From NCBI GenBank assembly GCA_003166025.1, contig PMWT01000073.1:8657-72656 (forward strand): DNA of 64,000 bases, read 5' to 3'. The position numbers and the translations under genes are program-made. Shown here in pieces: positions 19,662-35,687 of the stretch. The notes under the pieces are model-generated. The model was not told the origin of the DNA. It made no database searches and worked only from the letters and a program-made list of their open reading frames with translations. The stretch comes from Acidimicrobiaceae bacterium (GTDB taxonomy: Bacteria > Actinomycetota > Acidimicrobiia > Acidimicrobiales > Palsa-688). Each line of letters opens with the position of its first letter. Position 1 is the stretch's first letter.

Positions 19662-19689
19662 GGCTGGCGGGTCTACTAGGGCTGGCGGG
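19654..19689. repeat. Perfect 18-bp tandem duplication TCTACTAGGGCTGGCGGG x2 spanning two convergent stop codons
   Basis: Copy 1 is 19654-19671 and carries the pyk TAG at 19659-19661. Copy 2 is 19672-19689 and carries the desaturase stop (CTA on the plus strand, 19676-19678). Confidence 0.95.
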
Positions 19690-20719
19690 CCAGCCGCCCG
19701 ACGTCGCGTAGGTGGCGAAGGGACAAGGCGTACGAGCGGACCAGCGAAGTCTCGCAGTAATCGATGCCGTGGGCCGAGCAGTAGGTCCTCACCATCCCCT
19801 GGCACCGGCGAAGATTGGCCATCGGCATGGTCGGGAACAGGTGGTGTTCGATCTGGTAATTGAGGCCCCCCATGGCCACGTCAAGTGCCCTTCCACCTCT
19901 CACATTGCGAGAGGTGGTGACCTGGCGGTGCACGAAGTCGAGCTTCTGGCCCGGCGCCGGCATGGCCATCCCCTTGTGGTTGGGAGCAAAGGCGCAGGCC
20001 AGGTACAACCCGAAGACGCCCTGCTGCACGGCGATGAAGGCCAACGCGCGCCACGGCGACATGACCACGAAGACCACCCCTAGGTACACGGCGGCATGAG
20101 CGACGAGCAGGGCGGCCTCGGTGGGCGTGTGCCGCACCGGCTTGGTGCCCAGGGACCGAGCGCTCGAGACGTGCAGGCTCAGCGCCTCCAGGCACGCCAG
20201 GGGGAAGAACAGGGCGGCCTGGTGCCTGGCCACCACCCGGCCCAGGCCGGTCTTGGCGCCGGCCTGCTCGGCCGTCCAGGAGATCACGCCGGCACCGACA
20301 TCGGGGTCGGCCCCGATCTCGTTGGGGTGGCTGTGGTGACGGTTGTGCTTGTCGACCCAGTACCCGTAGCTGATGCCCGTGGCCAGATCGGCGCAGGCCA
20401 GCCCGGCGAAGTTGTTCCACCGGCGCGAAGCGAACACCTGGCGGTGGCCGATGTCGTGGCCCAGGAAACCGACCTGAGCGAACACGACGGCGAGGTAGGC
20501 GGCTATGAGCAGCTGGTACCACGAGTTGCCGACAAGGGCCAGGGCGGCCCAACCGGCAGCGTAGAGGCCGCACACCAGGGTCACTCTCACCCCGTCCCGC
20601 CAGGGGGAATGCTGGAACAGGCCGGCGGCGCGGACCTGGTGGGCCAGGTCTAGGTAACTGTCATTGCCCGCCCGCGGCGCCGAGGGGGGCGCAATGGACA
20701 TGGGGGCGGTCACGGGCAC
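19676..20719 (-). CDS. Membrane fatty-acid desaturase (three His-box family)
   Basis: The His boxes are HDIGHRQ, HNRHHSHPN and QIEHHLFP, with flanking hydrophobic segments. An alternative start is ATG 20701. Confidence 0.85.
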   Translation of the reverse strand: MPVTAPMSIAPPSAPRAGNDSYLDLAHQVRAAGLFQHSPWRDGVRVTLVCGLYAAGWAALALVGNSWYQLLIAAYLAVVFAQVGFLGHDIGHRQVFASRRWNNFAGLACADLATGISYGYWVDKHNRHHSHPNEIGADPDVGAGVISWTAEQAGAKTGLGRVVARHQAALFFPLACLEALSLHVSSARSLGTKPVRHTPTEAALLVAHAAVYLGVVFVVMSPWRALAFIAVQQGVFGLYLACAFAPNHKGMAMPAPGQKLDFVHRQVTTSRNVRGGRALDVAMGGLNYQIEHHLFPTMPMANLRRCQGMVRTYCSAHGIDYCETSLVRSYALSLRHLRDVGRLARQP

Positions 20720-20898
20720 ACCGTCAACAGACCGCGGTGAGCGAGGGCGGCGAAGCCAAGCCCGGTGACCGACTCAGGAAGCCTCCCGCACCACATGGTG
20801 TCCTTTACCGTCGCAACTGGCGACGTAGCCAGGAAGCCCTCTTGGTCGAAGGTTGGCTCCAATATACACGGGGCGCGAACGGAGTAGACCTAGTAGCG

Positions 20899-21654
20899 AT
20901 GGCCGCCAGCGAAGACGCCCCCGCCCGCCCCGCGGGGCCTGCCACGGATCTGATCGTCGACCTCACCCAGACGGCTCAGGGCCTTTTCCGGGCCGGGGGG
21001 GTCGAACTGACGCTCCAGGCCGTGGTCGACCTGGCCGTAGCCACCATCGAGGGCTGTGACTTTGCCGGCGTGTTCGTGCTCAAGGCCGGGAAGGTCACCA
21101 CCCCCGTGAAAACCGACGCAATGGTTGCTCAATTGGACGATTGCCAGATCGGCGGAAAGCAAGGGCCGTGCCTGGACTGCATGGCCGAAGGGACCGCCGT
21201 CTACGCCGAGGACCTGGCCAGGGATCCCAGATGGCCCAATTTCGGCCCGGAGGCCGCCGGGTCCGGCGTGCGCAGCGTCCTGGCCCTGTGCCTGGTGGGC
21301 GAGGGCACGGTGATCGGGGCGCTCAACCTCTACGCCCGCTTCCCCCTGGCCTTCGGGGCCGTGGACCGCGCCCGGGGCCTTGTCCTGGCCGGCTTGGCCG
21401 GCCTGGCCCTGTCCGTGGCGGAGGCCCACGACGAGGAACTGCGCCGGGCCGAGAACCTGCGCCAGGCGCTTGTCACGCGCCAGCTGATCGGCCAGGCGCA
21501 GGGGATCCTGATGGAGCGGGAGCGGATCACTGCCGGGCAGGCCTTCGACATCCTGCGCCGGGCTTCACAACATCTGAACACCAAGTTACGCGAGGTTGCC
21601 CAGGAACTGGTCGAGACCGGTGAACGGCCTTCGACCGGGAACCCTAGCCCCTAG
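20899..21654 (+). CDS. GAF-ANTAR RNA-binding antitermination-type regulator
   Basis: A GAF-like N-terminus (GCDFAGVFVL...GALNLY) is followed by ANTAR (LVTRQLIGQAQGILMERERITAGQAFDILRRASQHLNTKLREVA). I placed the start at ATG 20899. Confidence 0.8.
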   Translation: MAASEDAPARPAGPATDLIVDLTQTAQGLFRAGGVELTLQAVVDLAVATIEGCDFAGVFVLKAGKVTTPVKTDAMVAQLDDCQIGGKQGPCLDCMAEGTAVYAEDLARDPRWPNFGPEAAGSGVRSVLALCLVGEGTVIGALNLYARFPLAFGAVDRARGLVLAGLAGLALSVAEAHDEELRRAENLRQALVTRQLIGQAQGILMERERITAGQAFDILRRASQHLNTKLREVAQELVETGERPSTGNPSP

Positions 21655-24566: not shown

Positions 24567-25352
24567 CTATGCGCGCTTGCCATGCCCGCCGCCCAGCGCC
24601 CGGTACAGCCAGGGCCAGCCACCGTGGAGCCGGGCCGCCAGGGCCAGCCACGCCGGTATGACCACGTCTTCCCGGCGCGTTTCGATGGCCCGCACGATGG
24701 CCTTGGCGACCGTGGCCGCGGGGATGGGCCGAGGCCAGGAATGCGTGTAGGGCCGGTTGCGGCGGAGGTAAAAGGGCGTGTCGACGGGACCGGGGCTGAC
24801 CAGGGTGACCGTCACCTGGTCGCTCGTCCACTCCGCCCTCAGGCTGTCGGCTAGTCCCTGCAGGCCGGCTTTGGCCGTGCTGTAAGCGACCTCTTCGGCC
24901 ACCCCGACCAGGCCGGCGATGGAGCCGACGAGCACGAGCTGGCCTCCGGTAACGCTTTTTCGGAGGTAGGGGGAGGCGGCGTGGGCCAGGTGCATGGGGG
25001 CCCGAAGGTTGATGTCGAGCAGAGCGTCGATCTCGGCCGGGGGCATCTGTTCGAAAAAGCCCAGCCATCCGGCGCCGGCATTGGAGACCACGACGTCGAG
25101 CCCGTCCAGCGTGGCCGCCGCTTGTTCGACAACGTCGGTAGGGGCGCCCGGCTCGATCAGGTCGCGGGCCACGGTGGCCTCGAAGTGGCCTGGCCCCGCC
25201 ACGACCACCCGGGCCAGTGCTGACGCGTCCCTTCCGGTGCCCACCACCCGGGCGCCGCGCTGGGCCAACAGCGAGCTCACGGCGGCGCCGATGCCGCTCG
25301 AGGCACCTGTGACGAGCACCCGGAGCCCGTCCAGCGGCCGGGAAGGGGGCAA
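24567..25352 (-). CDS. Classical short-chain dehydrogenase/reductase, last gene of the hopanoid operon
   Basis: TGASSGIG, NAGAG, YSTAKAG, and a Trp-rich C-terminal helix. TTG 25352 lies 4 nt after the hpnH stop. An alternative start is GTG 25319. Confidence 0.8.
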   Translation of the reverse strand: MPPSRPLDGLRVLVTGASSGIGAAVSSLLAQRGARVVGTGRDASALARVVVAGPGHFEATVARDLIEPGAPTDVVEQAAATLDGLDVVVSNAGAGWLGFFEQMPPAEIDALLDINLRAPMHLAHAASPYLRKSVTGGQLVLVGSIAGLVGVAEEVAYSTAKAGLQGLADSLRAEWTSDQVTVTLVSPGPVDTPFYLRRNRPYTHSWPRPIPAATVAKAIVRAIETRREDVVIPAWLALAARLHGGWPWLYRALGGGHGKRA

Positions 25353-25356
25353 TTGA

Positions 25357-26361
25357 TCAGCGGGCGTTTACAAGAGCGCGCAGGGACTGGCGCAAACTGC
25401 CCGTAGTGGCCAGGACGGCGCTGGGCTCGAACCCGCAATGGGCCATGCAATTGTGGCAGCGGGGGTCGCGGCCCCGGCCGTACTTGGACCAGTCGGTGGT
25501 CTCGATGAGCTCCTTGTACGTCTCGGTGTAACCGTCGGCCAGCAGGTAGCACGGCCGCTGCCAGCCGAAGACCGAGTAGGAGGGCACGCCCCAGGGGGTG
25601 CACTCGAACTCGACCTTTCCTTCCAGGAAGTCAAGGAAAAGTGGGCTGTGGTTAAGCCGCCAGTTTTTGCGCTTGCCCGCGAAGGCCTCCCTGAACAGCT
25701 TGGTCGACTGGTTGACGCCGAGGAAGTGCACCTGGTCCGGGGCTTTTTCGTAGGCGTACCCCGGAGAGATCATCATGGTGTCCACCTCGAGCTCGTCGTT
25801 CAGGAAGTCGAGCACCTCCTGCACCGTCTTGGGCGAGTCGGTGTCGAAAAAAGTCGTGTTGGTGGCGACGCGGAAGCCCTTTTCCTTGGCCGCCTTTATG
25901 GCGGCGACAGCCTTTTCGAAAACACCTTCCCGGCTGACGGACTCGTCGTGGCGCTCTTTCAGGCCATCGATGTGGATAACCCACGAAAAGGCGGGATGGG
26001 GCTTGAACCGGTCGAGCTTGCGTTCCAGCAGCAGGGCGTTGGTGCACAGGTAGACGAAGCGCTTGCGCTCGAGCAGGGCCTCGGTCATTTTCTCGATCTG
26101 GGGGTGCAGCAACGGCTCGCCCCCGGCGATCGACACCATGGGGGCCCCGCACTCCTCGATGGCGGCCACGGCCTGTTCGACCGAGAGGCGCTGGCGTAGT
26201 ACGTCGGTCGGGTACTGGATCTTGCCGCAACCATTGCACTCGAGGTTGCAGGCGAACAGCGGTTCGAGCTCGACGATGAGGGGGAACTTTTCCCGGCCAG
26301 CCAGTTTCTGGCGGGCGATATAACTGCCCACCTTGACGCTTTGGCGCAAAGGCACACCCAT
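25357..26361 (-). CDS. hpnH: Hopanoid radical-SAM protein HpnH (adenosylhopane synthase)
   Basis: The radical-SAM motif CNLECNGCG is present, with full-length resemblance to HpnH (KFPLIVELEPLFACN...GWQRPCYLL...RCHNCMAHCGFE). The ATG directly abuts the upstream TAA. Confidence 0.88.
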   Translation of the reverse strand: MGVPLRQSVKVGSYIARQKLAGREKFPLIVELEPLFACNLECNGCGKIQYPTDVLRQRLSVEQAVAAIEECGAPMVSIAGGEPLLHPQIEKMTEALLERKRFVYLCTNALLLERKLDRFKPHPAFSWVIHIDGLKERHDESVSREGVFEKAVAAIKAAKEKGFRVATNTTFFDTDSPKTVQEVLDFLNDELEVDTMMISPGYAYEKAPDQVHFLGVNQSTKLFREAFAGKRKNWRLNHSPLFLDFLEGKVEFECTPWGVPSYSVFGWQRPCYLLADGYTETYKELIETTDWSKYGRGRDPRCHNCMAHCGFEPSAVLATTGSLRQSLRALVNAR

Positions 26362-27909
26362 TTATCGGACCTCCGGAGGAAGGGGAAAGGACACGTTCTC
26401 ATGGCCGGTCGAGCGCTCCTCGATGGATATGGAGCCCAGCCCGGCCAGGCAATCGACGACTTGCTGTACGAGCTCGGGGGGTGCCGACGCGCCCGCCGTC
26501 ACACCCACGCGGCGCGCCCCGGCGAGCCAGGAGAGGCGCAGGTCCGCCTGGTTGTCGACCAGATGGGCGCGGGCCCCACAACGTCTGGCGACCTCGACCA
26601 AGCGGTTGGAATTGGACGAGTTGTGCGAGCCCACAACGATGACGACGTCGCAGTCAGGAGCCATTTCCCGCACCGCTTCTTGACGGTTTTGGCTGGCGTA
26701 ACAGATGTCCGACGCCGCCGGCCGGGCGAGGTCGGTGAAGTGCTGCTCGAGCGCGCCGACCACCGTCTTCACTTCGTCGGTGGCGAGCGTGGTCTGGGTC
26801 ACGAAAGCGGTGGGCTTGGTCGCGTCGAGCTCGAGGTGATCGACGTCATCGGGGACGCTGACCAGTTTTGTGCCCGGTACGATGCCCATTGTCCCTTCGA
26901 CCTCATCGTGCCCAGCATGGCCGATGAGGACGAGTTGGCGGCCGGCCGCGGCGAAACGACGGGCCTCGTTGTGGACTTTGGTCACGAGGGGGCACGTGGC
27001 GTCGATGGTGGGCATCTGGCGCCGCCTCGCCTCGTCGTGGACGCTGTTGCCCACCCCGTGGGCGGAGAACACGACTCGGGCCCCGTCGGGCACTTCCGCC
27101 AGTTCCTCCACGAACACGGCGCCGGCGGATTCCAGGCGGGAGACAACGTGCGCATTGTGGACTATTTGGCGGCGCACGTAGATAGGCGCGCCGTAGCGCT
27201 GCAGAGCCCGCTCGACCGTCTCGATGGCGCGCTCCACTCCGGCGCAGAACGACCTCGGTTCGGCCAGCAGTACCTGCCTCGGCCCGGCCGCCGCCGCCCA
27301 GTCGGCCAGCGCTCGCCGGCAGCGGCGCAGGCTGTGCAGCCCCTTGAGGGCGCCCACGACGCCGGCGGGGGAGAACAGCTCGGCGCCCGGCGAGTCGGAC
27401 ACAGCCCTCAGCACGGCTAGGGGCGCCCCCCAGTCGGCCCCGGCCAGGGCGGTCGACTCCATGTCCACGACATCGGCGCCCAGGGCCGCCAGCGCGGCCC
27501 GTTGGCTCCCGCTGACGAGGTGGCCGGTGCTCAGCACCGCCCCCGTGCGGGCGCGCAGGCCGTCCCTCACCAGCTCGCCGACGAGCAGCGGAGCAGAGGC
27601 CAACCGGGCCACCTCGCGGCCCTGGTCGTCGAGGAGGCGGTCGGCCACCACCACGTCGCCCGGCACCAGGCCCGGTGCCAGCGCACCCCCGAGGCCGGCC
27701 ACCACCACGGCGGCAGGGGGGCCCGGTACGGCGCTCAAACGTCGTGCCGACGCACCGGCCCGGGCCAGGCCCATGCCCGTTCGCTCGACGACCAGGTCCG
27801 CCGGCCCGACCTTGCCGCTCGGGCCGAGGGCCATGGCCTCGAGCCTCAGCGGCGCCAGGACCAACAGACGAGGGGCGCCGGCCGTTGTCACCCGGTTATG
27901 GCTTTGCAC
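26362..27909 (-). CDS. ispH: Fusion protein: HpnG-like PNP/UDP-family nucleosidase (N-terminal ~195 aa) plus IspH/LytB HMBPP reductase (C-terminal ~320 aa)
   Basis: N-terminal part: LLVLAPLRLEA, VVVAGLGGALAPGLVPGDVVVADRL, GADVVDMESTALA. C-terminal part: FCAGVERAIE, FSAHGV, DATCPLVTKVH, GHAGHDEVEGT, GSHNSSNSNRL. Candidate starts are GTG 27909 and GTG 27891. Confidence 0.8.
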   Translation of the reverse strand: MQSHNRVTTAGAPRLLVLAPLRLEAMALGPSGKVGPADLVVERTGMGLARAGASARRLSAVPGPPAAVVVAGLGGALAPGLVPGDVVVADRLLDDQGREVARLASAPLLVGELVRDGLRARTGAVLSTGHLVSGSQRAALAALGADVVDMESTALAGADWGAPLAVLRAVSDSPGAELFSPAGVVGALKGLHSLRRCRRALADWAAAAGPRQVLLAEPRSFCAGVERAIETVERALQRYGAPIYVRRQIVHNAHVVSRLESAGAVFVEELAEVPDGARVVFSAHGVGNSVHDEARRRQMPTIDATCPLVTKVHNEARRFAAAGRQLVLIGHAGHDEVEGTMGIVPGTKLVSVPDDVDHLELDATKPTAFVTQTTLATDEVKTVVGALEQHFTDLARPAASDICYASQNRQEAVREMAPDCDVVIVVGSHNSSNSNRLVEVARRCGARAHLVDNQADLRLSWLAGARRVGVTAGASAPPELVQQVVDCLAGLGSISIEERSTGHENVSFPLPPEVR

Positions 27910-29887
27910 CCTTGGGGCGGGGGCCCGTACCTAAGTGGTAGCGGCCCAGCGCAGTGAGCGGGAAGACGTGGCGGTAAAGGTGGTAGTTCAGGGAAAAGTC
28001 CCACGGGAACCCGGTGCCGGTGAACCAGGGCTCGTCCCAGGTCCCGTCGGGGGTCTGGTTGCCCACGAGCCACTCGACACCGTTTTTGGTGGCCGGGTTT
28101 TCTCGTTCCCCGGCCGCCAGGAGGCCGAGCAGCGCCCAGGCGGTCTGGGAAGCGGTGGACGCCCCCCGGCCGTGCCAGCCCGGCTCGACGTAGGAGCGCA
28201 GGTCCTCGCCCCAGCCTCCGTCGGGGTTCTGGTGTTCGGTCAACCACCGCGCCCCGTCCGCCACTCGGGGATCTTTGGCCGGTACGCCGGCGGCGACGAG
28301 GGCCGGTAGGACCGCGCCCGTGCCGTATATGTAGTTGACGCCCCAGCGTCCCCAGTAGGAGCCGTCGGGCTCCTGGTGCCCTCCCAGCCAGTCGAGGCCC
28401 TTCTGCATGGCTTCGCGCCATTCCGGCGGCCTGTTCTCGACCGCCAGCATCTCGGCCGCCAGCATCTCGACCACGTGGGCGGTGACGTCCGCCGTCGGCG
28501 GGTCGGTGACGACCCCGAAGTCGAAGAACGGCAGCTGGGTAGGCAGCTCGGAGGTGTTGTCGGCGTCGAAGGCGGCCCAGCCCCCGTCCTTGCACTGCAT
28601 GCCGACGAGCCAGTTGACGGCGCGACGGCAGGCGCCCTCCCCGTCGGGGCCGCCGGCCCCCCGGCGCAGGGCGATGACGACTTCAGCGGTGTCGTCGATG
28701 TCGGGGTAATGGACGTTCTGGAACTCGAAAGCCCAGCCGCCGGGTGCCAGCCCCGGCCTCCTGACTGACCAGTCGCCGACGACGGTCACTTCTCTTTGCA
28801 CGAGCCAGTCCCGGGCCATCTTGATGGACGGGTCATCGTGGGCCGTACCCGCGTCCAATAGGGCGGTTACGGCCAGAGCGGTGTCCCAGACAGGGGACTG
28901 GCACGCCTCGATGCGCCGGCCGGACTCGTCGTCTACGGCGAAGGCGTCGAGGCCACGCAAAGCGGCGGCGATGACCGGGTGGTCGAGGGGATAGCCCTGC
29001 AGGACCAAGGCGATCGTGGAGTAGACCATCGGCGGCTGGATCCCGCCCCAGGAACCGTCCGCCTCCTGGCGGGCCACGATCCAGCGCTCGGCCTCGCGTA
29101 GGGCGGCACCCCTGATCACGCGCTTGGGCCACCACTGGTCGGAAAGTGACTCGTAGTAGTGAAGGGCCTTGTCGAGCGCCACCAGGGCCACGCCCAGGGC
29201 GTTCAAGCGCCGGCCCCGGGGTTGTTTGCCTGATTTGAGCTCTTCGATCTCGAACGGGAGCGGGTGCGCCGGCCGGTGCGCCGATATGACCGACAGGGCG
29301 ACGATCGTCTGGCGGGCCCAACAGGCGAAAGACCAGATGGACAGGGGCCAGTCCGAAGGTAGGAACACCAGCTCGGGCGGGATGGCGGGCAGCTTTTGCC
29401 AGTCCCAGCGGCCCACCATGGCCAGCCAGACATGGGTGAACATCCGGGCTGACTCGACACCACCGTGCCGGCGGGCCCACGCCGCCGCCTTGGCCATGTG
29501 CGGCTGGTCGGGGTCGTCACCGGCGAGGCGGAGGGCGACGTACGCCTCAATGGTGGCCGAAAGCTCGCCCGGGCCCCCGTAGAAGGTTGTCCAGGGCCCG
29601 TCCGGCCGTTGTTGCGACCGGATGCGGCCGGCGGCGGCGCCGACGATGTCGTCGTCCAGGATCCCGAGGAAATGACGCAGCAGGACGTCCTCGGCGTCCA
29701 TGGTGACGTTGGTCTCGAGTTCGCCCTTCCACCAGCCGTCGGGTTCCTGGCGGTCCTTCAGGTGGGCACTGGCCAGGGCGATGGCCTCGGCCACGCTCCT
29801 TTCGACCACCAGGGGATCTGTCTCGGTCACGCTGATGTCGGACGAGGTGCTCTCGTCTTCGCCGGGGGCACGGGCGAGCAGCGTCAT
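27896..29887 (-). CDS. shc: Squalene-hopene cyclase
   Basis: QW-type repeats are present (DGGWG, DGSWGG, DGWWKG), along with a DDTAEV catalytic motif and GWAFEF. ATG 29887 overlaps the upstream stop (ATGA). Confidence 0.92.
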   Translation of the reverse strand: MTLLARAPGEDESTSSDISVTETDPLVVERSVAEAIALASAHLKDRQEPDGWWKGELETNVTMDAEDVLLRHFLGILDDDIVGAAAGRIRSQQRPDGPWTTFYGGPGELSATIEAYVALRLAGDDPDQPHMAKAAAWARRHGGVESARMFTHVWLAMVGRWDWQKLPAIPPELVFLPSDWPLSIWSFACWARQTIVALSVISAHRPAHPLPFEIEELKSGKQPRGRRLNALGVALVALDKALHYYESLSDQWWPKRVIRGAALREAERWIVARQEADGSWGGIQPPMVYSTIALVLQGYPLDHPVIAAALRGLDAFAVDDESGRRIEACQSPVWDTALAVTALLDAGTAHDDPSIKMARDWLVQREVTVVGDWSVRRPGLAPGGWAFEFQNVHYPDIDDTAEVVIALRRGAGGPDGEGACRRAVNWLVGMQCKDGGWAAFDADNTSELPTQLPFFDFGVVTDPPTADVTAHVVEMLAAEMLAVENRPPEWREAMQKGLDWLGGHQEPDGSYWGRWGVNYIYGTGAVLPALVAAGVPAKDPRVADGARWLTEHQNPDGGWGEDLRSYVEPGWHGRGASTASQTAWALLGLLAAGERENPATKNGVEWLVGNQTPDGTWDEPWFTGTGFPWDFSLNYHLYRHVFPLTALGRYHLGTGPRPKGAKP

Positions 29888-31083
29888 GACTCGCGCTCCA
29901 CTGCGTAGACGGCCAGGTCGGCCAGTGCCCGTCGGGGCACGGCCGATAGGCGGGCCCGTTCGAGCGAGCCGAGGGCGGCGTCGAGGTGGGCCTTGGCCCG
30001 GGCGGCCGTCCATTCCCGGCCACCGCACGCCTCCACCAGCCACGTCGCCCGAGCCAGGTCCTCCGGGCTCAGGTACCGCAGCGGTGCCGGTGACCAGTCG
30101 GGGGTGGCCACCGTGACCTGGTCCGCCATGAGCATGGCACCGTTGTGGTGCCCGGCCCTCGGCTCCCGGCCATCAGGTATGGCCTCGCCCAGAATGATCC
30201 CGCCCGGGACAACTTCGCCCGAGATGGCGGGGCCCGAGATGGCGGGACCTGGTCTGGTGTCGAACAGCAGGCTCTCGAGTTCCCGGGCACCGTCGTCGCC
30301 GGCAGCCAGGGCGGCAACTATGGGCATCGACTTCTTCCGCTGGCGGATGTCGTTGCCGGCCGGCTTGCCCGTCGTCCGCGGGTCTCCCCATATCCCCAGC
30401 AGGTCGTCGACGGCCTGGAAGGCCACGCCCAGATGACGGCCGAAGTCCCGGAGGGCATACACCGTGGCCGGTGGTGCATCGGCCAGGACGGCCCCGATCG
30501 ACGCTGCGCACCCGAGCAGCGCGCCCGTCTTCGCCGTCGACATGGCCATGCACTCCTCGACACTGACCGAACGCCGTTTTTCGAACGCCAGGTCGTCGGC
30601 CTGGCCCGCGATCATCTCCGCGGTGGCCTCGCCGAGGGCCGCGGCGGCGGCCGCCCCGGCCGCGTTAGGGCTGCGGAGCAGGACATCGGTAGCCAGCGTG
30701 GCCAGGGCGTCCCCGACCAACAGGGCCACACAGGGGCCCCACAACGCCCAGACGGTAGGGCGGTGACGGCGCTCGATGTCGCCGTCCATCAGGTCGTCAT
30801 GCACGAGCGAAAAGTTGTGCACGAGCTCTATCGCCACCCCGCCGGGCGCCCCGACCTCGGCGCCGGCCCAGGTCGCCTCGGCCGACAGGACGGCCAGGGC
30901 GGCCCGGATCCCCTTGCCCCCGCGGGCTGGGGACGGCGTCCCGTCGGCCTCTGTCCAGCCCAGGTGGTAGCTCACCACTCCCGAGATGTTGGGAGACAGA
31001 CGTCCGACGGCGTCGCGCATAAGTGGCTGAGTCAGATCGCGTGCCCGTTCGAGCACTTCTACAACTGACGTGGTCGGCGTCAC
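29884..31083 (-). CDS. Polyprenyl diphosphate synthase (hopanoid-cluster FPP-synthase type)
   Basis: It has the first DDxxD motif (LVHDDLMD) and the second (FQAVDDLLG), followed by KPAGNDIRQRKKS. GTG 31083 overlaps the hpnE stop (GTGA). It contains an in-frame 15-bp duplication (GPAISGPAIS). Confidence 0.85.
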   Translation of the reverse strand: MTPTTSVVEVLERARDLTQPLMRDAVGRLSPNISGVVSYHLGWTEADGTPSPARGGKGIRAALAVLSAEATWAGAEVGAPGGVAIELVHNFSLVHDDLMDGDIERRHRPTVWALWGPCVALLVGDALATLATDVLLRSPNAAGAAAAAALGEATAEMIAGQADDLAFEKRRSVSVEECMAMSTAKTGALLGCAASIGAVLADAPPATVYALRDFGRHLGVAFQAVDDLLGIWGDPRTTGKPAGNDIRQRKKSMPIVAALAAGDDGARELESLLFDTRPGPAISGPAISGEVVPGGIILGEAIPDGREPRAGHHNGAMLMADQVTVATPDWSPAPLRYLSPEDLARATWLVEACGGREWTAARAKAHLDAALGSLERARLSAVPRRALADLAVYAVERES

Positions 31084-32711
31084 GTAACCTCCTGGAGCTG
31101 TTCAGGCTGTGGCCGGGCCCCCACCGCCGAGGGGGCTGTTGGCAACGGGCTGTTCGGGGACCGGGTGCTTGACAAATCGGTGTTCGACATATTCCTGTTC
31201 AACAGGGTGCCCGACAAATAGGCCCGGGGCAAAGACGCGCGACGCCCGGTGGCCGCCAGCACGGTGCGAGCGGCCGCCAGTCCGCTGCGGACAGCCCCTT
31301 CCATGGTCGGGGGCCAGCCCGTCGCCGTCCAGGCGCCCGCCACTGCGAGCCCGGGAGCCCGGGTACGGGCCGGGGCACGGTGCTGTGCGGAGCCCGGGGA
31401 CGCCCGGAAAGTGGCGTTGTGCTCACGGGTGACGAGGGTTTTCAGGACCTTCGCCTCCCGAGCCGCGGGGAAAAGGGCGCCTAGGGCTTCCACCATGTCG
31501 CTGCCGAGGTCCAAAGGGCGCGCCCCGATGTAATCGTCGGCGCCGGATATAGAGACGGCCAGGTACTGGCCCTGCCCAGCCCCCGAGGAGACAGTGCGGT
31601 CGAAAATCCACTGGGCCGGCGAGTCGAGGGCCGCGGCCAGACGAAGGTCGGTGACGCGGCGGTCGAAATGGACGTGCACGTTGACTATGGGCGAGCTGCC
31701 CAGCTCTGATGGCCGTATGCCGTCGGGCAGAGCGCCCGAAGGCAGCACGTCCTCGATCAGGTAGTGGGGGAGGGCCACGATGACGCCGTCGGCGGGCAGC
31801 TCCCCCTGGGAGGTGTGGACGACGAAGCGAGGGGTGCCCGCGACGCCGTCGGTGACCTCGCTCACGGGCCGGACCGCCGTGACCGCGTCCGACAGGTGCA
31901 CCTCCACGCCCGCCTTTCGTAGCGCGAGGGCTCCCTTTTCGCCGTGGAGGGCGCCCAGGGGCACGCGGCTCCAGCCGATGTCCCCGGCGCGACTGTCGGT
32001 CAGCAGTCCCGTTTGGAAGACCTTGGCCGCCATGGCCAAGGAGGCCCGGCGAGCCGGCAGGTTGACAGTGGGCAGGCAGATGAGGTCCCACAACGCCGAA
32101 ATGACGACCTCGCTCTGACCGTGCGCGCGCAGCCATTCCTCGAAGGTCTGCTGGTCCAGGGCGGGGTCGTCGAGGTCGAGGTGGGCGAGAGCGAGCGCGG
32201 CGGGGCCGAAGCGGGCCCGGTCGGCCCACGAGATCAGGCCGTAGCGCAGCAGCGATCGGGCCAGGTGCAGTGGGGCAGGCACTCGGTCTCGGCTCAGGCG
32301 GGCCGCGTCGACGCCGGCTGGCGGCACCCAGCTCCCGGGCCCGCCCGGGCGGCTCGGCCCGGCCCGGAGCACGGTGACGTCGAGGCGCTCCTGGAGCTCC
32401 ACGTCGCCGGCCGAGCCTATTCGGCCCAGGAAGTCGAGGTAGGCGGTGCAGCAGCGCAAGAAGACGTGCTGGCCGTTGTCGACCTGGAGGCCGTCGTGGG
32501 TGAACGACCATGTCAGCCCGCCCAGCCGGGAGCGCTTCTCCAGGAGCGTGACCCCGGCCCCGGCGTCCGCACAAGCGAGGGCGGCGGAGATCCCTGCCAG
32601 CCCGCCGCCGACGACGACGACGTGGGGCTGGCTGTCTGGGGCTCGGGCGCCTGGCGCCCCGCCGGCGCCAGGCCCGGGCTGTACGGCCAGTCCGGCTCCC
32701 GGGGCGCTCAT
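31080..32711 (-). CDS. hpnE: FAD-dependent hydroxysqualene dehydroxylase, HpnE-like (phytoene desaturase family)
   Basis: The dinucleotide fold is VVVVGGGLAGISAALACADAGAGVTLLEKRSRLGG. ATG 32711 overlaps the hpnD stop (ATGA). The ORF-track 5' extension lies in the upstream gene. Confidence 0.8.
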   Translation of the reverse strand: MSAPGAGLAVQPGPGAGGAPGARAPDSQPHVVVVGGGLAGISAALACADAGAGVTLLEKRSRLGGLTWSFTHDGLQVDNGQHVFLRCCTAYLDFLGRIGSAGDVELQERLDVTVLRAGPSRPGGPGSWVPPAGVDAARLSRDRVPAPLHLARSLLRYGLISWADRARFGPAALALAHLDLDDPALDQQTFEEWLRAHGQSEVVISALWDLICLPTVNLPARRASLAMAAKVFQTGLLTDSRAGDIGWSRVPLGALHGEKGALALRKAGVEVHLSDAVTAVRPVSEVTDGVAGTPRFVVHTSQGELPADGVIVALPHYLIEDVLPSGALPDGIRPSELGSSPIVNVHVHFDRRVTDLRLAAALDSPAQWIFDRTVSSGAGQGQYLAVSISGADDYIGARPLDLGSDMVEALGALFPAAREAKVLKTLVTREHNATFRASPGSAQHRAPARTRAPGLAVAGAWTATGWPPTMEGAVRSGLAAARTVLAATGRRASLPRAYLSGTLLNRNMSNTDLSSTRSPNSPLPTAPSAVGARPQPEQLQEVT

Positions 32712-33601
32712 GCCGTACCCGTTGTCATGGCCCGGGCCGCCACGACCAGCTTCTCGGCCGAGGACAGGCCGAGCCGCCCGTGGAGCACGGCCTCGGGGTC
32801 GACCCGGATCTTGTCCAGGAGCCGGCGGTATATCCCTGTCATGGCCGCGGTGCAGGCCCGGCTGCGTTTGTCCAGCAGGGGTAGCAGGGCCATCCCCCGC
32901 TCGTACCATTCGGCGGCCCGGCCTGTCTCGAAGCAGATGAGGGCCACGAGGTCGTCGCGCCGCCCCGTAAGGGCGGCGTCCACGCCGAAGCGGGCCAAGT
33001 CTTCGCTCGGCAGGTAAACCCGGCCCATCACGTCACGGTCCTCGATCAGGTCTCGCAGTATGTTCGTGAGCTGCAACCCTACGCCCAGGGCGTCCGCCAG
33101 GGGTTCGGCCGCCGGCCCGTCGCTGCTGCCGTAGACGGCCAGCGACAGGCGGCCGATCGTACCGGCTACCCGGCGACAGTACTCGACGAGCTCGGAGAAG
33201 CTCCCGTACCTCCGGCCGGCGATGTCCCACTCGCACCCCTCCACCAGGTCCAGGAAGGCGCCGATCGGTACCGGGAACTGCCGGGCCGTGTCGGCCAGCG
33301 CGGTCAGGACGGGGTCGCCCGGGGGGGCGGCGACCGCCGGGGTACCTTCGCCGGTCGCCTTGGCCAGCAACTCGAGCGACGTCCGTACCTCCTGCAGGGC
33401 ATGGAGCCTGTTGTCGGCCGCGCCAGCAGCACCGGGCCCGTCGCCGATGTCGTCGATGCGCCGGGCCATGGCGTAGAGGGCGCACATGGCAGAACGCTGG
33501 CGGGGCGGGAGCAGCCGGATCCCGTAATAGAAGTTCCGCGCTCGCGACCGGGTTATCCTCTCGCACTGCTTGTAGGCGAGGGCAACGGCGGCCGCGTTCA
33601 A
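32708..33601 (-). CDS. hpnD: Presqualene diphosphate synthase, HpnD-like (squalene/phytoene synthase family)
   Basis: SRARNFYYGIRLLP, YAMARRIDDIGD, NILRDLIEDRDVMGRVYLP. The start is TTG 33601, preceded by GGAGGAG, and it overlaps the hpnC stop (TTGA). Confidence 0.8.
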   Translation of the reverse strand: MNAAAVALAYKQCERITRSRARNFYYGIRLLPPRQRSAMCALYAMARRIDDIGDGPGAAGAADNRLHALQEVRTSLELLAKATGEGTPAVAAPPGDPVLTALADTARQFPVPIGAFLDLVEGCEWDIAGRRYGSFSELVEYCRRVAGTIGRLSLAVYGSSDGPAAEPLADALGVGLQLTNILRDLIEDRDVMGRVYLPSEDLARFGVDAALTGRRDDLVALICFETGRAAEWYERGMALLPLLDKRSRACTAAMTGIYRRLLDKIRVDPEAVLHGRLGLSSAEKLVVAARAMTTGTA

Positions 33602-34602
33602 ATTGTCTCCTCCCGCGTCCCGGCCCCGGGCCGGGCCGACCGGTAGGCATTCTGGAGCAGACGGGCCAGATGGGGCCCGAAGCGTCCGATCGTGGGCCGG
33701 GAGGGCTCGGCATAAATGTCGAAGTCGACGGCAGCCAGGCCGTCCAGGGCGGCGTGGCCACCGGCCGTGAAACTGGCGACCGCAATGCGGAGGCGGCCTT
33801 TGAGGCTGGCCACCAGGGGGCTCCCGTCGTCGAGCATCCGCCGTGCCCGGGCTACTTCGAAGGCCAGAAGGGCGCGGCAGGCCGGGCTCGCACCGCCGGC
33901 GGCGCCTCGCCGGCGACGGTCGACGTACCCGGCGGACGGGGGGACCAGCTCTTCGACGCTGACCCCGAAGCGTCTCATGTCTTCTAACGGCAGGTAGACC
34001 CGCCCGACGATGGCGTCCTCGGCCACGTCCTGCCAGTGCTCGACCAGTTGCAGAGCGGTACAGGTGCTGTCGGACCAGGTGTTGCGTTGCGGTGTGGCCA
34101 CGCCGAAGATGCCGAGCACCATGCGCCCGACCGGGTTGGCGGAGAGCCGGCAATAGCCGACCAGGTCCGCGAAGGTCTCATAACGAGAGACGACCTGGTC
34201 CTGGCGGTTGGCCTGGACCAGGTCGAAGAGAGGCTCCGTGGGCAGGTCGAGCCGGTGTACCGTTTCGGCCATCCTCTTGACCAGGGGGTGTACGTCGTCG
34301 TCCGGCCTGGGGCCGTCGGGGGAGCCCCCCTGTCCCGGCCCGGGGCCGAGGGCGAGCCGGAGCTGGTGCTCGACTTCGTCGAGGGCGGCCATACGGTCAC
34401 CGGCGTAGTCGTCGCCGATCTGGTCCACGAGCCGGGCCCAGCCGTAAAGAGCCATGAGGTCGGACCGCACAGCCGCCGGCAGCAGCCGCGAGGCGACAGG
34501 GAAGTTCTCGGTGCCGGCGCGGCCGAGGACGACGTACTCAGGAGGCAGGTCCGATTTGGCGCGAGCGGCCCGGGACGGTGCACGCATCGCCGCTGCCGTC
34601 AT
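33598..34602 (-). CDS. hpnC: Hydroxysqualene synthase, HpnC-like (squalene/phytoene synthase family)
   Basis: ENFPVASRLLP, YGWARLVDQIGDD, WQDVAEDAIVGRVYLP. It is the first gene of the operon, with an AGAGGGGA RBS. Confidence 0.8.
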   Translation of the reverse strand: MTAAAMRAPSRAARAKSDLPPEYVVLGRAGTENFPVASRLLPAAVRSDLMALYGWARLVDQIGDDYAGDRMAALDEVEHQLRLALGPGPGQGGSPDGPRPDDDVHPLVKRMAETVHRLDLPTEPLFDLVQANRQDQVVSRYETFADLVGYCRLSANPVGRMVLGIFGVATPQRNTWSDSTCTALQLVEHWQDVAEDAIVGRVYLPLEDMRRFGVSVEELVPPSAGYVDRRRRGAAGGASPACRALLAFEVARARRMLDDGSPLVASLKGRLRIAVASFTAGGHAALDGLAAVDFDIYAEPSRPTIGRFGPHLARLLQNAYRSARPGAGTREETI

Positions 34603-34793: not shown

Positions 34794-35639
34794 TCAGGGC
34801 GATGCCGGCCGTAGTGCCCAATCGGGCCCGACGGCCCACTGGAGCACGGTGGCGAACGCCGTCTCGATGACCTCGAGCCCGGCCGGGACCGGGTCGTCGG
34901 ACAACGGTCGCCCGGCTGCCTCCGCCAGGGTACGCAGGACCCGAGCAGCGAGGATCTGGCTGGGGAAGTCACCTCGGGCCGCCCGCGCGCCCAGTTCCAA
35001 GAGGATGGGCATGGCCCGGGTGATGAGCCGACCGAAGACGACTGCGGTCTTGCCCGGGTCGTGAGCCAGGCCCTCAGGGCCCCCGAGCTCGGCGACCGCT
35101 TGGGCGAAGCGCTCGGCGGTGTCCTGGCAGAGGCTCTCCACTACGGCGGTGAAAAGGGCCTCCTTGGAGGGGAAATGCCGGTAAACGGTCCCCTTGGCCA
35201 CACCTGCCGTGGCCGCGATCTCGCTTACGGTGACTGCAGCGTAGCCCTTGGGTTCGGAGAACAATTTGAACGCTGCGTCGACCAGGCGTTTCTGGGGTTC
35301 TTCGCTGCAGTCGGGCGTGGCCGGCGGCAGCGGGTGGCGGCCGTCCATGAGGTCGGGCAGGACCGCTTTGATCTGGCCCAGGCCCATGGCCCGTTCCTCG
35401 CGAAGCTCCCGGATGAGCTGCAGCGCGTGCAGGTGGACCTCGGAGTACACGTAGCGGCCCGGGCGGGTCAGCTCCGGCTCGGGCAGGAGGCCCAGGCGAC
35501 GGTAGTGGTGCACGGTGCTCGGGGGAACGCCGGATAGGGCGACGAGCCGGCCGAGCGAGATCGGCTCGCCGGCGCGACTACCAGGGCCGGCCCGGTCCGG
35601 GCCGCCTTGGCGGGCTGGTTGGGTTGCTCCTGAGGCCAT
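34794..35639 (-). CDS. Dual-HTH transcription regulator: MerR-type N-terminal HTH fused to a TetR-family regulator
   Basis: MerR-like part: ISLGRLVALSGVPPSTVHHYRRLGLLPEP...YVYSEVHLHALQLIRELRE. TetR-like part: RLVDAAFKLFSEPKGYAAVTVSEIAATAGVAKGTVYRHFPSKEALF. I prefer ATG 35639 over the ORF-track TTG 35675. Confidence 0.75.
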   Translation of the reverse strand: MASGATQPARQGGPDRAGPGSRAGEPISLGRLVALSGVPPSTVHHYRRLGLLPEPELTRPGRYVYSEVHLHALQLIRELREERAMGLGQIKAVLPDLMDGRHPLPPATPDCSEEPQKRLVDAAFKLFSEPKGYAAVTVSEIAATAGVAKGTVYRHFPSKEALFTAVVESLCQDTAERFAQAVAELGGPEGLAHDPGKTAVVFGRLITRAMPILLELGARAARGDFPSQILAARVLRTLAEAAGRPLSDDPVPAGLEVIETAFATVLQWAVGPDWALRPASP

Positions 35640-35687
35640 AGGCACCGTCCGTGCGGTTCTGCCACCCAGATTCAAGCACGGCCGCGC

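What the first reader, a model, noticed from the sequence alone, without database searches (positions are those of the whole stretch)
26362..27909. One ORF fuses an HpnG-like nucleosidase to a complete IspH
Seen in the sequence: a single uninterrupted 515-aa ORF. Residues ~1-195 carry PNP/UDP-type nucleosidase motifs (VVVAGLGGALAPGLVPGDVVVADRL, GADVVDMESTALA). Residues ~200-515 are a full IspH/LytB (CAGVERAIE, SAHGV, DATCPLVTKVH, GHAGHDEVEG, SSNSNRL).

Established knowledge: the hopanoid nucleosidase HpnG belongs to the PNP/UDP family. Actinobacterial hopanoid clusters such as the Streptomyces type carry an extra ispH copy near hpnH as a separate gene.

Inference: the last MEP-pathway enzyme is physically fused to the hopanoid side-chain nucleosidase. 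This could couple precursor supply to C35 processing, or it could simply reflect co-expression pressure.
Basis: partly seen in the sequence, partly recalled or inferred. Interest (0 to 1): 0.65.

Follow-up and report, generated by a model that had tools for sequence, protein, structure and literature searches.

The report
HpnG nucleosidase fused to IspH
A hopanoid-lipid gene cluster of an Acidimicrobiales bacterium encodes one protein that joins the adenosylhopane nucleosidase HpnG to a complete IspH; the fusion is real and occurs in over a hundred actinobacterial genomes, but databases name it only as IspH.

Summary
ORF 26362..27909 (- strand, 515 aa; more likely 509 aa from GTG 27891) has a PNP_UDP/MTAN-type nucleosidase half and a full IspH half. 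It lies between shc and hpnH in a canonical hopanoid operon.

It is not a sequencing artefact. The same single frame is kept in all 80 best genome loci, and 103 distinct assemblies carry both halves adjacent. They span Acidimicrobiia, Thermoleophilia and Actinomycetes, including cultured Pseudonocardia, Amycolatopsis, Dactylosporangium, Rhodococcus and Phytohabitans.

Both halves keep their catalytic residues and are under purifying selection. The N-half belongs to the actinobacterial HpnG subfamily: it is 42% identical to the stand-alone Streptomyces gene at the hpnG position. That whole subfamily scores far below NCBIfam's HpnG cut-off.

The IspH half sits in an actinobacterial clade of terpenoid-cluster IspH copies, separate from the xseA-linked housekeeping type.

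My best reading is a bifunctional enzyme made by fusing neighbouring operon genes, selected for co-expression. Substrate channelling is not indicated.

No paper in the searched library describes the fusion. One side effect: a RefSeq Streptomyces record gives the stand-alone HpnG the IspH name. I could not establish whether these genomes carry a second ispH.

Interest is moderate to low.

The parts
26362..27909 (-). Whole fused ORF hpnG-ispH (515 aa from GTG 27909; probable true start GTG 27891 gives 509 aa; stop TAA 26362-26364)
27370..27870 (-). N-terminal nucleosidase domain (res 14-180), MTAN/PNP fold, actinobacterial HpnG subfamily. Invariant E24, D149, E151, R168 and D172; M150 nearly invariant
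   Evidence: Pfam PF01048 at 49.9 bits. Best NCBIfam match is HpnG TIGR03468 at 57.8-61.6 bits. Foldseek TMt about 0.70 to MTAN structures. Invariant residues. dN/dS 0.18-0.30
27274..27369 (-). Two connecting helices (res 181-207) that run straight into IspH strand 1, with invariant W204. The junction has fixed length and no flexible linker
   Evidence: AF2 secondary structure, with block-mean pLDDT of about 98 over res 181-210 and 92 over 211-220. No gaps across 79 fused sequences. W204 is invariant
26365..27273 (-). IspH/LytB domain (res 213-515). Cluster ligands C222, C306 and C403; H251, H284, H334, E336, T373, S431, S432, N433 and S475 correspond to E. coli C12/C96/C197, H41, H74, H124, E126, T167, S225-N227 and S269
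   Evidence: PF02401 at 304.6 bits. TIGR00216 at 299.9 bits against a 187.85 cut-off. 324.8 bits (E 5e-96) by sequence to E. coli IspH PDB entries, aligned end to end, with 52-53% identity in the Foldseek alignment. TMt 0.90. Conserved residues. dN/dS 0.07-0.12
27896..30043 (-). shc, squalene-hopene cyclase, immediately upstream
   Evidence: TIGR01507 at 713.7 bits against a 431.1 cut-off
25357..26361 (-). hpnH, adenosylhopane synthase (radical SAM), immediately downstream; its ATG abuts the fusion's TAA
   Evidence: TIGR03470 at 522 bits against a 225 cut-off; sequence
24567..25352 (-). SDR-family oxidoreductase, 4 nt after hpnH, same strand
   Evidence: Syntenic in the Acidimicrobiales and closely related loci L001-L006
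29884..31083 (-). Polyprenyl diphosphate synthase
31080..32909 (-). hpnE, hydroxysqualene dehydroxylase
   Evidence: TIGR03467 at 369.9 bits against a 283 cut-off
32708..33583 (-). hpnD, presqualene diphosphate synthase (exact start uncertain)
   Evidence: TIGR03465 at 257.4 bits, just below the 278.6 cut-off
33598..34602 (-). hpnC, squalene synthase
   Evidence: TIGR03464 at 274.5 bits against a 250.45 cut-off
34794..35675 (-). TetR-family regulator at the head of the cluster

Best explanation
The ORF encodes a bifunctional polypeptide, and I take both halves to carry out their canonical reactions independently.

The N-half is the actinobacterial form of HpnG. It removes adenine from adenosylhopane, the product of the downstream-encoded HpnH, to give ribosylhopane. 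The mechanism is probably MTAN-like hydrolysis.

The C-half is a genuine [4Fe-4S] IspH that reduces HMBPP to IPP and DMAPP. It belongs to a clade of IspH copies embedded in actinobacterial terpenoid clusters, and it raises C5 precursor supply for squalene and hopanoid synthesis.

The fusion arose when two adjacent genes of a hopanoid operon (shc-hpnG-ispH-hpnH) lost the stop between them. It spread or was inherited across Actinomycetota and is kept because it guarantees co-expression at a 1:1 ratio. It is not kept because an intermediate passes from one active site to the other.

Shown here: domain identity, intact catalytic residues, purifying selection, conserved synteny, the wide distribution, and the existence of natural split forms. 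Inferred: the two enzyme activities, hydrolysis rather than phosphorolysis, the precursor-supply role, and the absence of channelling.
For: Domains and fold: (pLDDT 93.7, pTM 0.89; TMt 0.90 to E. coli IspH and about 0.70 to MTAN).

All E. coli IspH cluster ligands and HMBPP or diphosphate-binding residues are invariant or nearly invariant in 66 fused proteins. The substrate is therefore still a small diphosphate.

The MTAN catalytic equivalents are invariant in 30 N-domains that are 38-73% identical to the window's. These are E24 for E12, D149-M150-E151 for E172-M173-E174, R168 for R193 and D172 for D197.

dN/dS is 0.18-0.30 for the N-half and 0.07-0.12 for the IspH half.

A single open frame spans both domains in 80 of 80 loci, always followed directly by hpnH with a median gap of 3 nt. 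Another 23 assemblies have both halves adjacent next to hpnH.

The N-half occupies the hpnG slot between shc and hpnH. It is 42% identical (E 1e-17) to the stand-alone Streptomyces gene in that slot. HpnG is the best NCBIfam match for all 30 N-domains tested.

Natural split forms exist. In L097 (Thermoleophilaceae) the order is ispH, shc, hpnG, hpnH.

In an NJ tree the fused IspH domains form one clade. That clade also holds solo copies next to a 2-methylisoborneol-type cluster, next to polyprenyl synthase or next to dxs. It excludes the xseA-linked housekeeping type.

IspH is also fused to Dxs, to polyprenyl synthase and to squalene/phytoene synthase in other proteins. ispH sits beside hpnH or shc as a separate gene in Burkholderiaceae, in Bryobacterales and in Acidobacteria SD1 (PMC5462960).

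Precedents: M. tuberculosis LytB1 in the isotuberculosinol operon (PMC8837944), and the IspDF fusion of non-consecutive steps (PMC13001223).
Against: No enzyme activity was measured.

The N-half scores only 57.8-61.6 bits against the curated HpnG model TIGR03468, whose cut-off is 187.1.

The junction is not a loose linker. It is a fixed-length, confidently modelled helical connector with an invariant Trp, and pTM is 0.89. That would also fit a functional interdomain interface.

I could not show that any fusion-bearing genome has a second, housekeeping ispH. In Acidimicrobiia the fused protein could therefore be the only IspH rather than an extra copy.

The NJ tree is a simple distance tree without support values.
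Confidence: 0.7

Rival explanations
1. This is a functionally coupled two-domain machine. The rigid connector makes an interface through which hopanoid side-chain processing and precursor supply regulate each other, for example adenosylhopane or adenine binding modulating IspH. Alternatively, it docks the protein into a complex with the [4Fe-4S] radical-SAM enzyme HpnH and a shared reductant.
For: The junction has fixed length with no gaps in 79 sequences. W204 is invariant in the connecting helix, including in stand-alone HpnG proteins. The two-domain model is confident, with pTM 0.89. The split IspH of L097 and the solo IspH of L227 keep a remnant of the Trp-containing helix. The fusion has persisted across three classes.
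Against: HpnG and IspH share no intermediate. IspH fuses with several different terpenoid enzymes. Streptomyces does without ispH in the cluster and uses ispG plus dxs. Split forms exist. W204 is also present in unfused HpnG, so it may simply belong to the HpnG fold. I could not inspect predicted aligned error.
Confidence: 0.15
2. The N-half is a general 5'-deoxyadenosine/MTA/SAH nucleosidase, not an adenosylhopane nucleosidase. It would clear inhibitory by-products of the neighbouring radical-SAM enzyme HpnH.
For: The closest solved structures and the second-best profiles are MTA/SAH nucleosidases. All MTAN catalytic residues are conserved. The HpnG trusted cut-off is not reached.
Against: HpnG is the best-scoring family for all 30 N-domains tested. 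The domain is syntenic with, and 42% identical to, the Streptomyces gene in the hpnG slot. According to Liu et al. 2014, as cited in PMC12583986, HpnG is responsible for adenine removal in S. coelicolor. No other HpnG candidate exists in the cluster or the window.
Confidence: 0.08
3. The IspH half has been recruited to a new reduction in hopanoid side-chain maturation, for example the still unassigned ribosylhopane-to-bacteriohopanetetrol step, and no longer serves the MEP pathway.
For: The enzyme for that step has not been established (PMC12583986). ispH is linked to hpnH or shc in several phyla.
Against: Every residue that binds the HMBPP diphosphate and hydroxyl in E. coli IspH is invariant or nearly invariant. 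Foldseek-aligned identity to E. coli IspH is 52-53% over the full length. The same clade sits next to non-hopanoid terpenoid genes.
Confidence: 0.04
4. The fusion is an assembly or sequencing artefact: a frameshift or missed stop has joined two genes.
For: None beyond the general possibility in a single window.
Against: At least 119 clusters at 90% identity from JGI, ENA, NCBI and Logan have the same two-domain architecture. All 80 genome loci examined keep a single open frame, and they include isolate genomes and long-read MAGs. There is no in-frame start codon between residue 186 and C222 from which a separate IspH could begin.
Confidence: 0.01

Closest known systems
Stand-alone actinobacterial HpnG (Streptomyces SCO6765-type gene between shc and hpnH)
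   Same: It has the same position in the operon. It is 42% identical over 144 aa to the N-half, has the same best profile (HpnG) and the same sub-threshold score (70.9 bits against 61.6 bits), and the catalytic E, DME, R and D residues are conserved.
   Different: It is a separate 213-aa protein. In Streptomyces the cluster's MEP genes are ispG and dxs, placed after hpnH, with no ispH (PMC3610822).
Proteobacterial HpnG (TIGR03468; e.g. the Mycetohabitans/Burkholderia nucleosidase next to shc)
   Same: It belongs to the PNP_UDP superfamily, is hopanoid-cluster associated and has the same presumed reaction.
   Different: Similarity to the window's N-half is only marginal (BLASTP E 0.005). It passes the HpnG cut-off (191.5 bits) whereas the N-half does not. 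It is not fused; there ispH is a separate gene directly upstream of hpnH.
E. coli IspH/LytB (PDB 3F7T, 3KE8) and M. tuberculosis LytB1, a terpenoid-operon paralogue
   Same: The C-half aligns end to end with E. coli IspH. Foldseek-aligned identity is 52-53% and TMt is 0.90, and all cluster ligands and substrate-binding residues are present. Like LytB1, it sits in a terpenoid operon (PMC8837944).
   Different: It carries a roughly 210-aa nucleosidase at its N-terminus. It lies in a clade separate from the xseA-linked housekeeping actinobacterial IspH.
Other MEP-pathway fusion proteins: IspDF, IspH-ribosomal protein S1 (NCBIfam NF000907), and Dxs-IspH, IspH-polyprenyl synthase and SQS_PSY-IspH in metagenomic proteins
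   Same: In each case one polypeptide joins enzymes of the same pathway neighbourhood that do not catalyse consecutive steps.
   Different: The partner here is a hopanoid side-chain enzyme far downstream of IspH. I found no description of this particular pair in the paper library.
MTA/SAH nucleosidase (MtnN/Pfs) and futalosine hydrolase
   Same: The fold and the catalytic residues are shared.
   Different: Sequence identity is low, 16-22% in the Foldseek alignments. The genomic context is different, and the N-half's best profile is HpnG.

Membership tests
IspH/LytB (PF02401, TIGR00216) | Profile score above the curated cut-off | tested here: met
   PF02401 scores 304.6 bits against 24.5. TIGR00216 scores 299.9 against 187.85. 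NF002190 scores 399.2 against 389. The narrower equivalogs NF002189 (419.2 against 444) and NF002188 (418.4 against 420) are just missed.
IspH/LytB (PF02401, TIGR00216) | Three Cys ligands of the [4Fe-4S] cluster, plus the H41, H74, H124, E126, T167, S225-S226-N227 and S269 equivalents | tested here: met
   C222, C306, C403, H251, H284, E336, T373, S431, S432, N433 and S475 are invariant in 66 fused proteins. H334 is at least 90% conserved.
IspH/LytB (PF02401, TIGR00216) | Trefoil three-domain IspH fold | tested here: met
   Foldseek E 1e-30 and TMt 0.90 to E. coli IspH structures; model pLDDT 93.7.
IspH/LytB (PF02401, TIGR00216) | HMBPP reductase activity or complementation of ispH | not testable with these tools
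   Needs an experiment.
HpnG, hopanoid-associated nucleosidase/phosphorylase (TIGR03468) | Score above the NCBIfam trusted cut-off (187.1 bits) | tested here: not met
   The score is 57.8 bits for the whole protein and 61.6 for the N-half alone. All 30 N-domains tested are far below the cut-off, with a best E-value of 6.8e-28. The stand-alone Streptomyces gene at the hpnG position also fails, at 70.9 bits, while a proteobacterial HpnG passes at 191.5 bits. The model therefore does not cover the actinobacterial subfamily.
HpnG, hopanoid-associated nucleosidase/phosphorylase (TIGR03468) | HpnG is the best-matching nucleosidase family | tested here: met
   In the window's N-half and in three other N-domains scanned individually, TIGR03468 outranks the MTAN, futalosine hydrolase and PNP models. 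All 30 members of alignment A2 match it, and it gives the best E-value of any family.
HpnG, hopanoid-associated nucleosidase/phosphorylase (TIGR03468) | Encoded in a hopanoid cluster next to shc and hpnH, and homologous to the gene in the hpnG slot of Streptomyces | tested here: met
   The window and all 80 loci have hpnH immediately downstream, with shc or hpnE upstream. The N-half is 42% identical (E 1e-17) to the Streptomyces fungicidicus gene between shc and hpnH.
HpnG, hopanoid-associated nucleosidase/phosphorylase (TIGR03468) | Cleaves adenine from adenosylhopane; loss of the gene accumulates adenosylhopane | not testable with these tools
   Genetic evidence exists for other organisms only (PMC13459092; PMC12583986).
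PNP_UDP_1 superfamily / MTAN-type nucleosidases | Pfam score above the gathering threshold, and the alpha/beta MTAN fold | tested here: met
   PF01048 scores 49.9 bits against 25.1. Foldseek E about 5e-9 and TMt about 0.70 to S. aureus, Salmonella and H. pylori MTAN.
PNP_UDP_1 superfamily / MTAN-type nucleosidases | Catalytic Glu12, Glu174, Arg193 and Asp197 (E. coli MTAN numbering) | tested here: met
   E24, E151, R168 and D172 are invariant in alignment A2. The DMES and RAVSD motifs align with EMEAT and RAISD in HMMER alignments. The E24-to-E12 match rests on an ungapped alignment of strand 1 made by eye.
Hopanoid biosynthesis gene cluster | Presence of hpnC, hpnD, hpnE, shc and hpnH | tested here: met
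   HpnC, HpnE, SHC and HpnH are above their NCBIfam cut-offs. HpnD is just below, at 257.4 bits against 278.6.

The most novel reading that the evidence does not exclude
The fused protein is a true functional unit rather than two beads on a string. In Acidimicrobiia it would be the cell's only IspH. Its rigid, Trp-anchored connector would let occupancy of the hopanoid nucleosidase site tune the last MEP step, or tether IspH to the HpnH and membrane-hopanoid machinery. Essential isoprenoid supply would then be wired to hopanoid side-chain maturation.
Probability: 0.1. Interest if true: 0.7.

Novelty: new variant of a known kind. Interest (0 to 1): 0.38.

Why it matters
First, annotation. In at least 103 actinobacterial genomes the only HpnG is hidden inside a protein named only 'IspH', and it scores far below the TIGR03468 cut-off. 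Surveys that infer C35 bacteriohopanepolyol capacity from HpnG, TIGR03468 or IPR017831 hits (as in PMC12324291) are therefore likely to undercount Actinomycetota. The converse error also occurs: a stand-alone Streptomyces HpnG carries the IspH name.

Second, biology. The fusion is a Rosetta-stone type link showing that an IspH copy is dedicated to hopanoid and other terpenoid clusters across Actinomycetota. That is useful when interpreting MEP-gene copy number and when engineering terpenoid flux.

Third, experiment. It provides a naturally soluble-tagged actinobacterial HpnG for settling the open question of hydrolysis against phosphorolysis of adenosylhopane (PMC13459092).

The fusion does not by itself reveal new chemistry.

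Tried and rejected
1. Sequencing artefact. Rejected by the comparative data.

2. Searching for a second, housekeeping ispH in a fusion-bearing genome. I tried three routes:
- A scan with a stand-alone representative (P0164).
- A scan with a Thermoleophilia solo IspH.
- A DNA pattern for the housekeeping-clade motif GHEGHEEVVGTTGQAP.
None returned a second locus from any of the 103 fusion-bearing assemblies. All four genome scans are used, and the question stays open.

3. Protein search with the N-half alone. It found only 37 proteins, mostly fragments of fused proteins. The word index handles this Ala/Gly-rich domain poorly, so the result says little about stand-alone HpnG.

4. tblastn of the N-half against plasmids. 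No match. The Streptomyces comparator was reached through hpnH instead.

5. Literature. Six searches and seven papers read found no mention of a HpnG-IspH fusion. Liu et al. 2014 (PMC4245026) is not held in the library. A table in the Frankia paper that might have given lytB copy number could not be interpreted.

6. Internal translation start for a separate IspH. Rejected: there is no in-frame ATG, GTG or TTG between residue 186 and C222.

7. Neofunctionalised IspH. Judged unlikely because all HMBPP-binding residues are conserved.
Full report
**Observation.** The window holds one uninterrupted ORF on the minus strand, 26362..27909, 515 aa, with a GTG start. Pfam finds PNP_UDP_1 at residues 32-175 (49.9 bits, cut-off 25.1) and LYTB at residues 213-488 (304.6 bits). 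NCBIfam gives IspH models at about 419 bits and TIGR00216 at 299.9 bits (cut-off 187.85). For the N-half, HpnG (TIGR03468) is the best nucleosidase family, but at only 57.8 bits against a cut-off of 187.1.

The annotated GTG at 27909 overlaps the shc stop. A second in-frame GTG at 27891 lies 4 nt after that stop and gives 509 aa, which is exactly the length of the nearest homologues. It is the more likely start. The stop TAA abuts the ATG of hpnH.

**Context.** All genes are on the minus strand. The order is: TetR regulator, hpnC, hpnD, hpnE, polyprenyl synthase, shc, the fused gene, hpnH, an SDR oxidoreductase, and a DUF2079 membrane protein. This is a canonical actinobacterial hopanoid operon, and the fused gene occupies the hpnG slot. 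The window has no other copy of either domain.

**Not an artefact.**
- The protein database returns at least 119 clusters (at 90% identity) with the same two Pfam domains. They are 54-100% identical, come from JGI, ENA, NCBI and Logan, and every named one is called only '4-hydroxy-3-methylbut-2-enyl diphosphate reductase'.
- In GTDB species genomes at least 402 stretches encode a relative. In all 80 best loci both domains lie in one open frame, and hpnH follows with a median gap of 3 nt.
- Later scans added 23 further assemblies in which the two halves are adjacent next to hpnH, giving 103 in all.
- The carriers span Acidimicrobiales, Thermoleophilia (Solirubrobacterales, Thermoleophilaceae, Conexibacteraceae) and Actinomycetes. 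They include cultured Pseudonocardia (five species), Amycolatopsis (four), Dactylosporangium, Phytohabitans and Rhodococcus sp. HNM0569.
- Two gene orders occur. One is hpnC-D-E, polyprenyl synthase, shc, fusion, hpnH. In Thermoleophilia the order is shc, hpnC-D-E, fusion, hpnH.
- The nearest relatives of the window are peat and fen Acidimicrobiales MAGs (L001, L136, L152).

**The IspH half.**
- It aligns end to end with E. coli IspH at 324.8 bits.
- With the offset read from that alignment, every functional residue of the E. coli enzyme has an equivalent: C222, C306 and C403 for C12, C96 and C197; H251, H284 and H334 for H41, H74 and H124; E336 for E126; T373 for T167; S431-S432-N433 for S225-S226-N227; and S475 for S269. 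All are invariant in 66 fused proteins except H334, which is at least 90% conserved. The functional roles of these residues are established knowledge from the E. coli IspH:HMBPP structures.
- The AlphaFold model (pLDDT 93.7, pTM 0.89) superposes on E. coli IspH with TMt 0.90 and 52-53% aligned identity.
- dN/dS against close relatives is 0.07-0.12.
- Because the diphosphate-binding residues are kept, the substrate is almost certainly still HMBPP.

**The nucleosidase half.**
- The closest solved structures are MTA/SAH nucleosidases.
- I aligned 28 fused N-domains with two stand-alone relatives (alignment A2, 38-73% identical to the window). E24, D149, E151, R168, D172 and W204 are invariant. 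They correspond to MTAN E12, E172, E174, R193 and D197. The MTAN roles are known from the literature, and the Glu12Gln and Asp197Asn mutant entries appear. The E24-to-E12 match is my own ungapped alignment of strand 1.
- dN/dS is 0.18-0.30, so the domain is maintained.

**Membership in HpnG.**
- The curated cut-off is not met. Two further results qualify that.
- All 30 N-domains have HpnG as their best family (best E 6.8e-28), and none is near the cut-off.
- The Streptomyces fungicidicus cluster is hpnC, hpnD, hpnE, polyprenyl synthase, shc, X, hpnH, ispG, dxs, aminotransferase. Its 213-aa gene X is 42% identical to the window's N-half and scores only 70.9 bits on TIGR03468. A proteobacterial HpnG scores 191.5 bits.
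- That gene order matches S. coelicolor SCO6760-6769 (PMC3610822). According to papers citing Liu et al. 2014, HpnG there removes adenine from adenosylhopane (PMC12583986).
- So the N-half belongs to an actinobacterial HpnG subfamily that the curated model does not reach.
- Conservation of the water-activating MTAN residues favours hydrolysis over phosphorolysis. This is inference. It fits the remark that phosphoribohopane has never been observed (PMC13459092).

**The junction.** The HpnG C-terminal helices (res 181-207) run directly into IspH strand 1. The region has no gaps in 79 fused sequences and is modelled with high confidence. No in-frame start codon lies between residue 186 and C222, so a separate IspH cannot be made by internal initiation.

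**Relatives that are not fused.**
- L097 (Thermoleophilaceae) has ispH, shc, a stand-alone hpnG and hpnH as four genes. Its IspH keeps a remnant of the Trp-containing helix.
- An NJ tree of 264 IspH domains puts all fused domains in one clade of 122 tips. Thirteen solo members are nested inside it. They include Actinoplanes copies beside a methyltransferase, terpene synthase and cNMP-binding protein cluster and a Stackebrandtia copy after a polyprenyl synthase.
- An Amycolatopsis thailandensis solo IspH (L227), which was not part of that tree, has a degenerate N-extension and is followed by dxs.
- Outside the clade lie Bryobacterales copies (ispH-shc), Planctomycetota copies and a second actinobacterial group. 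That group contains Mycolicibacterium P0172 and Gaiellales copies.
- Frankia-type solo copies, also not in the tree, share P0172's distinctive motifs GHEGHEEVVGT and NSSNSVRL. The Frankia copy is next to xseA, the housekeeping context. My identification of that context with M. tuberculosis lytB2 is from memory.
- The fused IspH therefore belongs to a terpenoid-cluster-associated actinobacterial clade. This parallels M. tuberculosis LytB1 (PMC8837944).

**Why fused.** HpnG and IspH do not share an intermediate. IspH is found fused to Dxs (P0175), polyprenyl synthase (P0178), squalene/phytoene synthase (P0193) and FBPase-like domains, and to ribosomal protein S1 (NCBIfam NF000907). IspDF is a known fusion of non-consecutive steps (PMC13001223). 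ispH lies next to hpnH or shc as a separate gene in Burkholderiaceae, Bryobacterales and Acidobacteria SD1 (PMC5462960).

The simplest account is a fusion of neighbouring operon genes, kept for co-expression. A functional interface remains possible, given the rigid connector and invariant W204. I rate it at about 0.15.

**Open point.** I could not determine whether fusion-bearing genomes also have a housekeeping ispH. Three scans found no second locus in any of the 103 assemblies, but each scan shows only a capped sample. For Actinomycetes a second copy is likely. For Acidimicrobiia it is unknown.

**Novelty and literature.** Six full-text searches and seven papers gave no description of this fusion. 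The architecture is, however, abundant in public sequence data, and both parts are well-known families. I class it as a new variant of a known kind, with moderate to low interest.

Its main practical value is in correcting annotation. HpnG is hidden under the IspH name in these genomes, and the curated HpnG model does not reach it, so profile-based surveys such as the one in PMC12324291 are likely to overlook it. In the other direction, the stand-alone HpnG in a Streptomyces RefSeq record carries the IspH name.

Noticed in passing
L237 8354-8995 (Streptomyces fungicidicus NZ_CP023408.1, WP_121548882.1): A 213-aa stand-alone HpnG-type nucleosidase lies between shc and hpnH. RefSeq names it '1-hydroxy-2-methyl-2-butenyl 4-diphosphate reductase', which is the IspH name, although LytB/IspH is not among its NCBIfam matches and its best family is HpnG. 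This is probably name transfer from the fused HpnG-IspH proteins.
   Followed up: partly
window 24567-25352 (-): An SDR-family oxidoreductase lies 4 nt downstream of hpnH in the same operon, and is syntenic in the Acidimicrobiales and closely related loci L001-L006. The enzyme that reduces ribosylhopane to bacteriohopanetetrol has not been established (PMC12583986), so this is a candidate worth testing. The link is pure speculation from position.
   Followed up: partly
L097 28-1101 and about 2980-3558 (Thermoleophilaceae MAG JAICJR010000169): This is a natural split arrangement: ispH, shc, stand-alone hpnG, hpnH. The solo IspH has a roughly 45-aa N-extension that still contains the Trp-bearing connector motif (ATWVLDRWAHTVAPRRVLL). 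That suggests a fission or rearrangement of a formerly fused gene.
   Followed up: partly
L227 2527-5753 (Amycolatopsis thailandensis NZ_NMQT01000077): A solo IspH that resembles the fused type (58% identical to the window's IspH half) has a roughly 160-aa N-extension that gave no match to the nucleosidase query. The extension keeps the connector motif (VVATWSAVTAPRRVLL). The gene is followed directly by dxs, so an IspH-Dxs supply pair sits outside the hopanoid cluster.
   Followed up: no
L090 2366-6915 (Actinoplanes sp. NPDC051851): A solo IspH of the fused clade sits beside genes that I judged by eye, without profile scans, to be a SAM methyltransferase, a terpene synthase and a cNMP-binding protein. 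The arrangement looks like a 2-methylisoborneol-type cluster, so this IspH clade also serves other terpenoid clusters.
   Followed up: no
P0175, P0178, P0193, P0220, P0227 (representative proteins): Other IspH fusions exist in public metagenomic proteins: Dxs-IspH (931 aa), IspH-polyprenyl synthase (671 aa), squalene/phytoene synthase-IspH (623 aa) and FBPase-like-IspH (609 and 709 aa). I did not check whether these are real or gene-calling artefacts.
   Followed up: no
window 32708-34153 (-): The hpnD ORF as listed is 481 aa and overlaps hpnC. The HpnD match covers only residues 201-476, so the real start is probably near 33583. The HpnD score (257.4 bits) is slightly below the NCBIfam cut-off (278.6).
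   Followed up: no
window 19676-20719 (-) and 20737-21654 (+): A fatty-acid desaturase family gene and a GAF-ANTAR regulator lie a few kb downstream of the hopanoid operon. I did not examine whether they relate to membrane-lipid remodelling.
   Followed up: no
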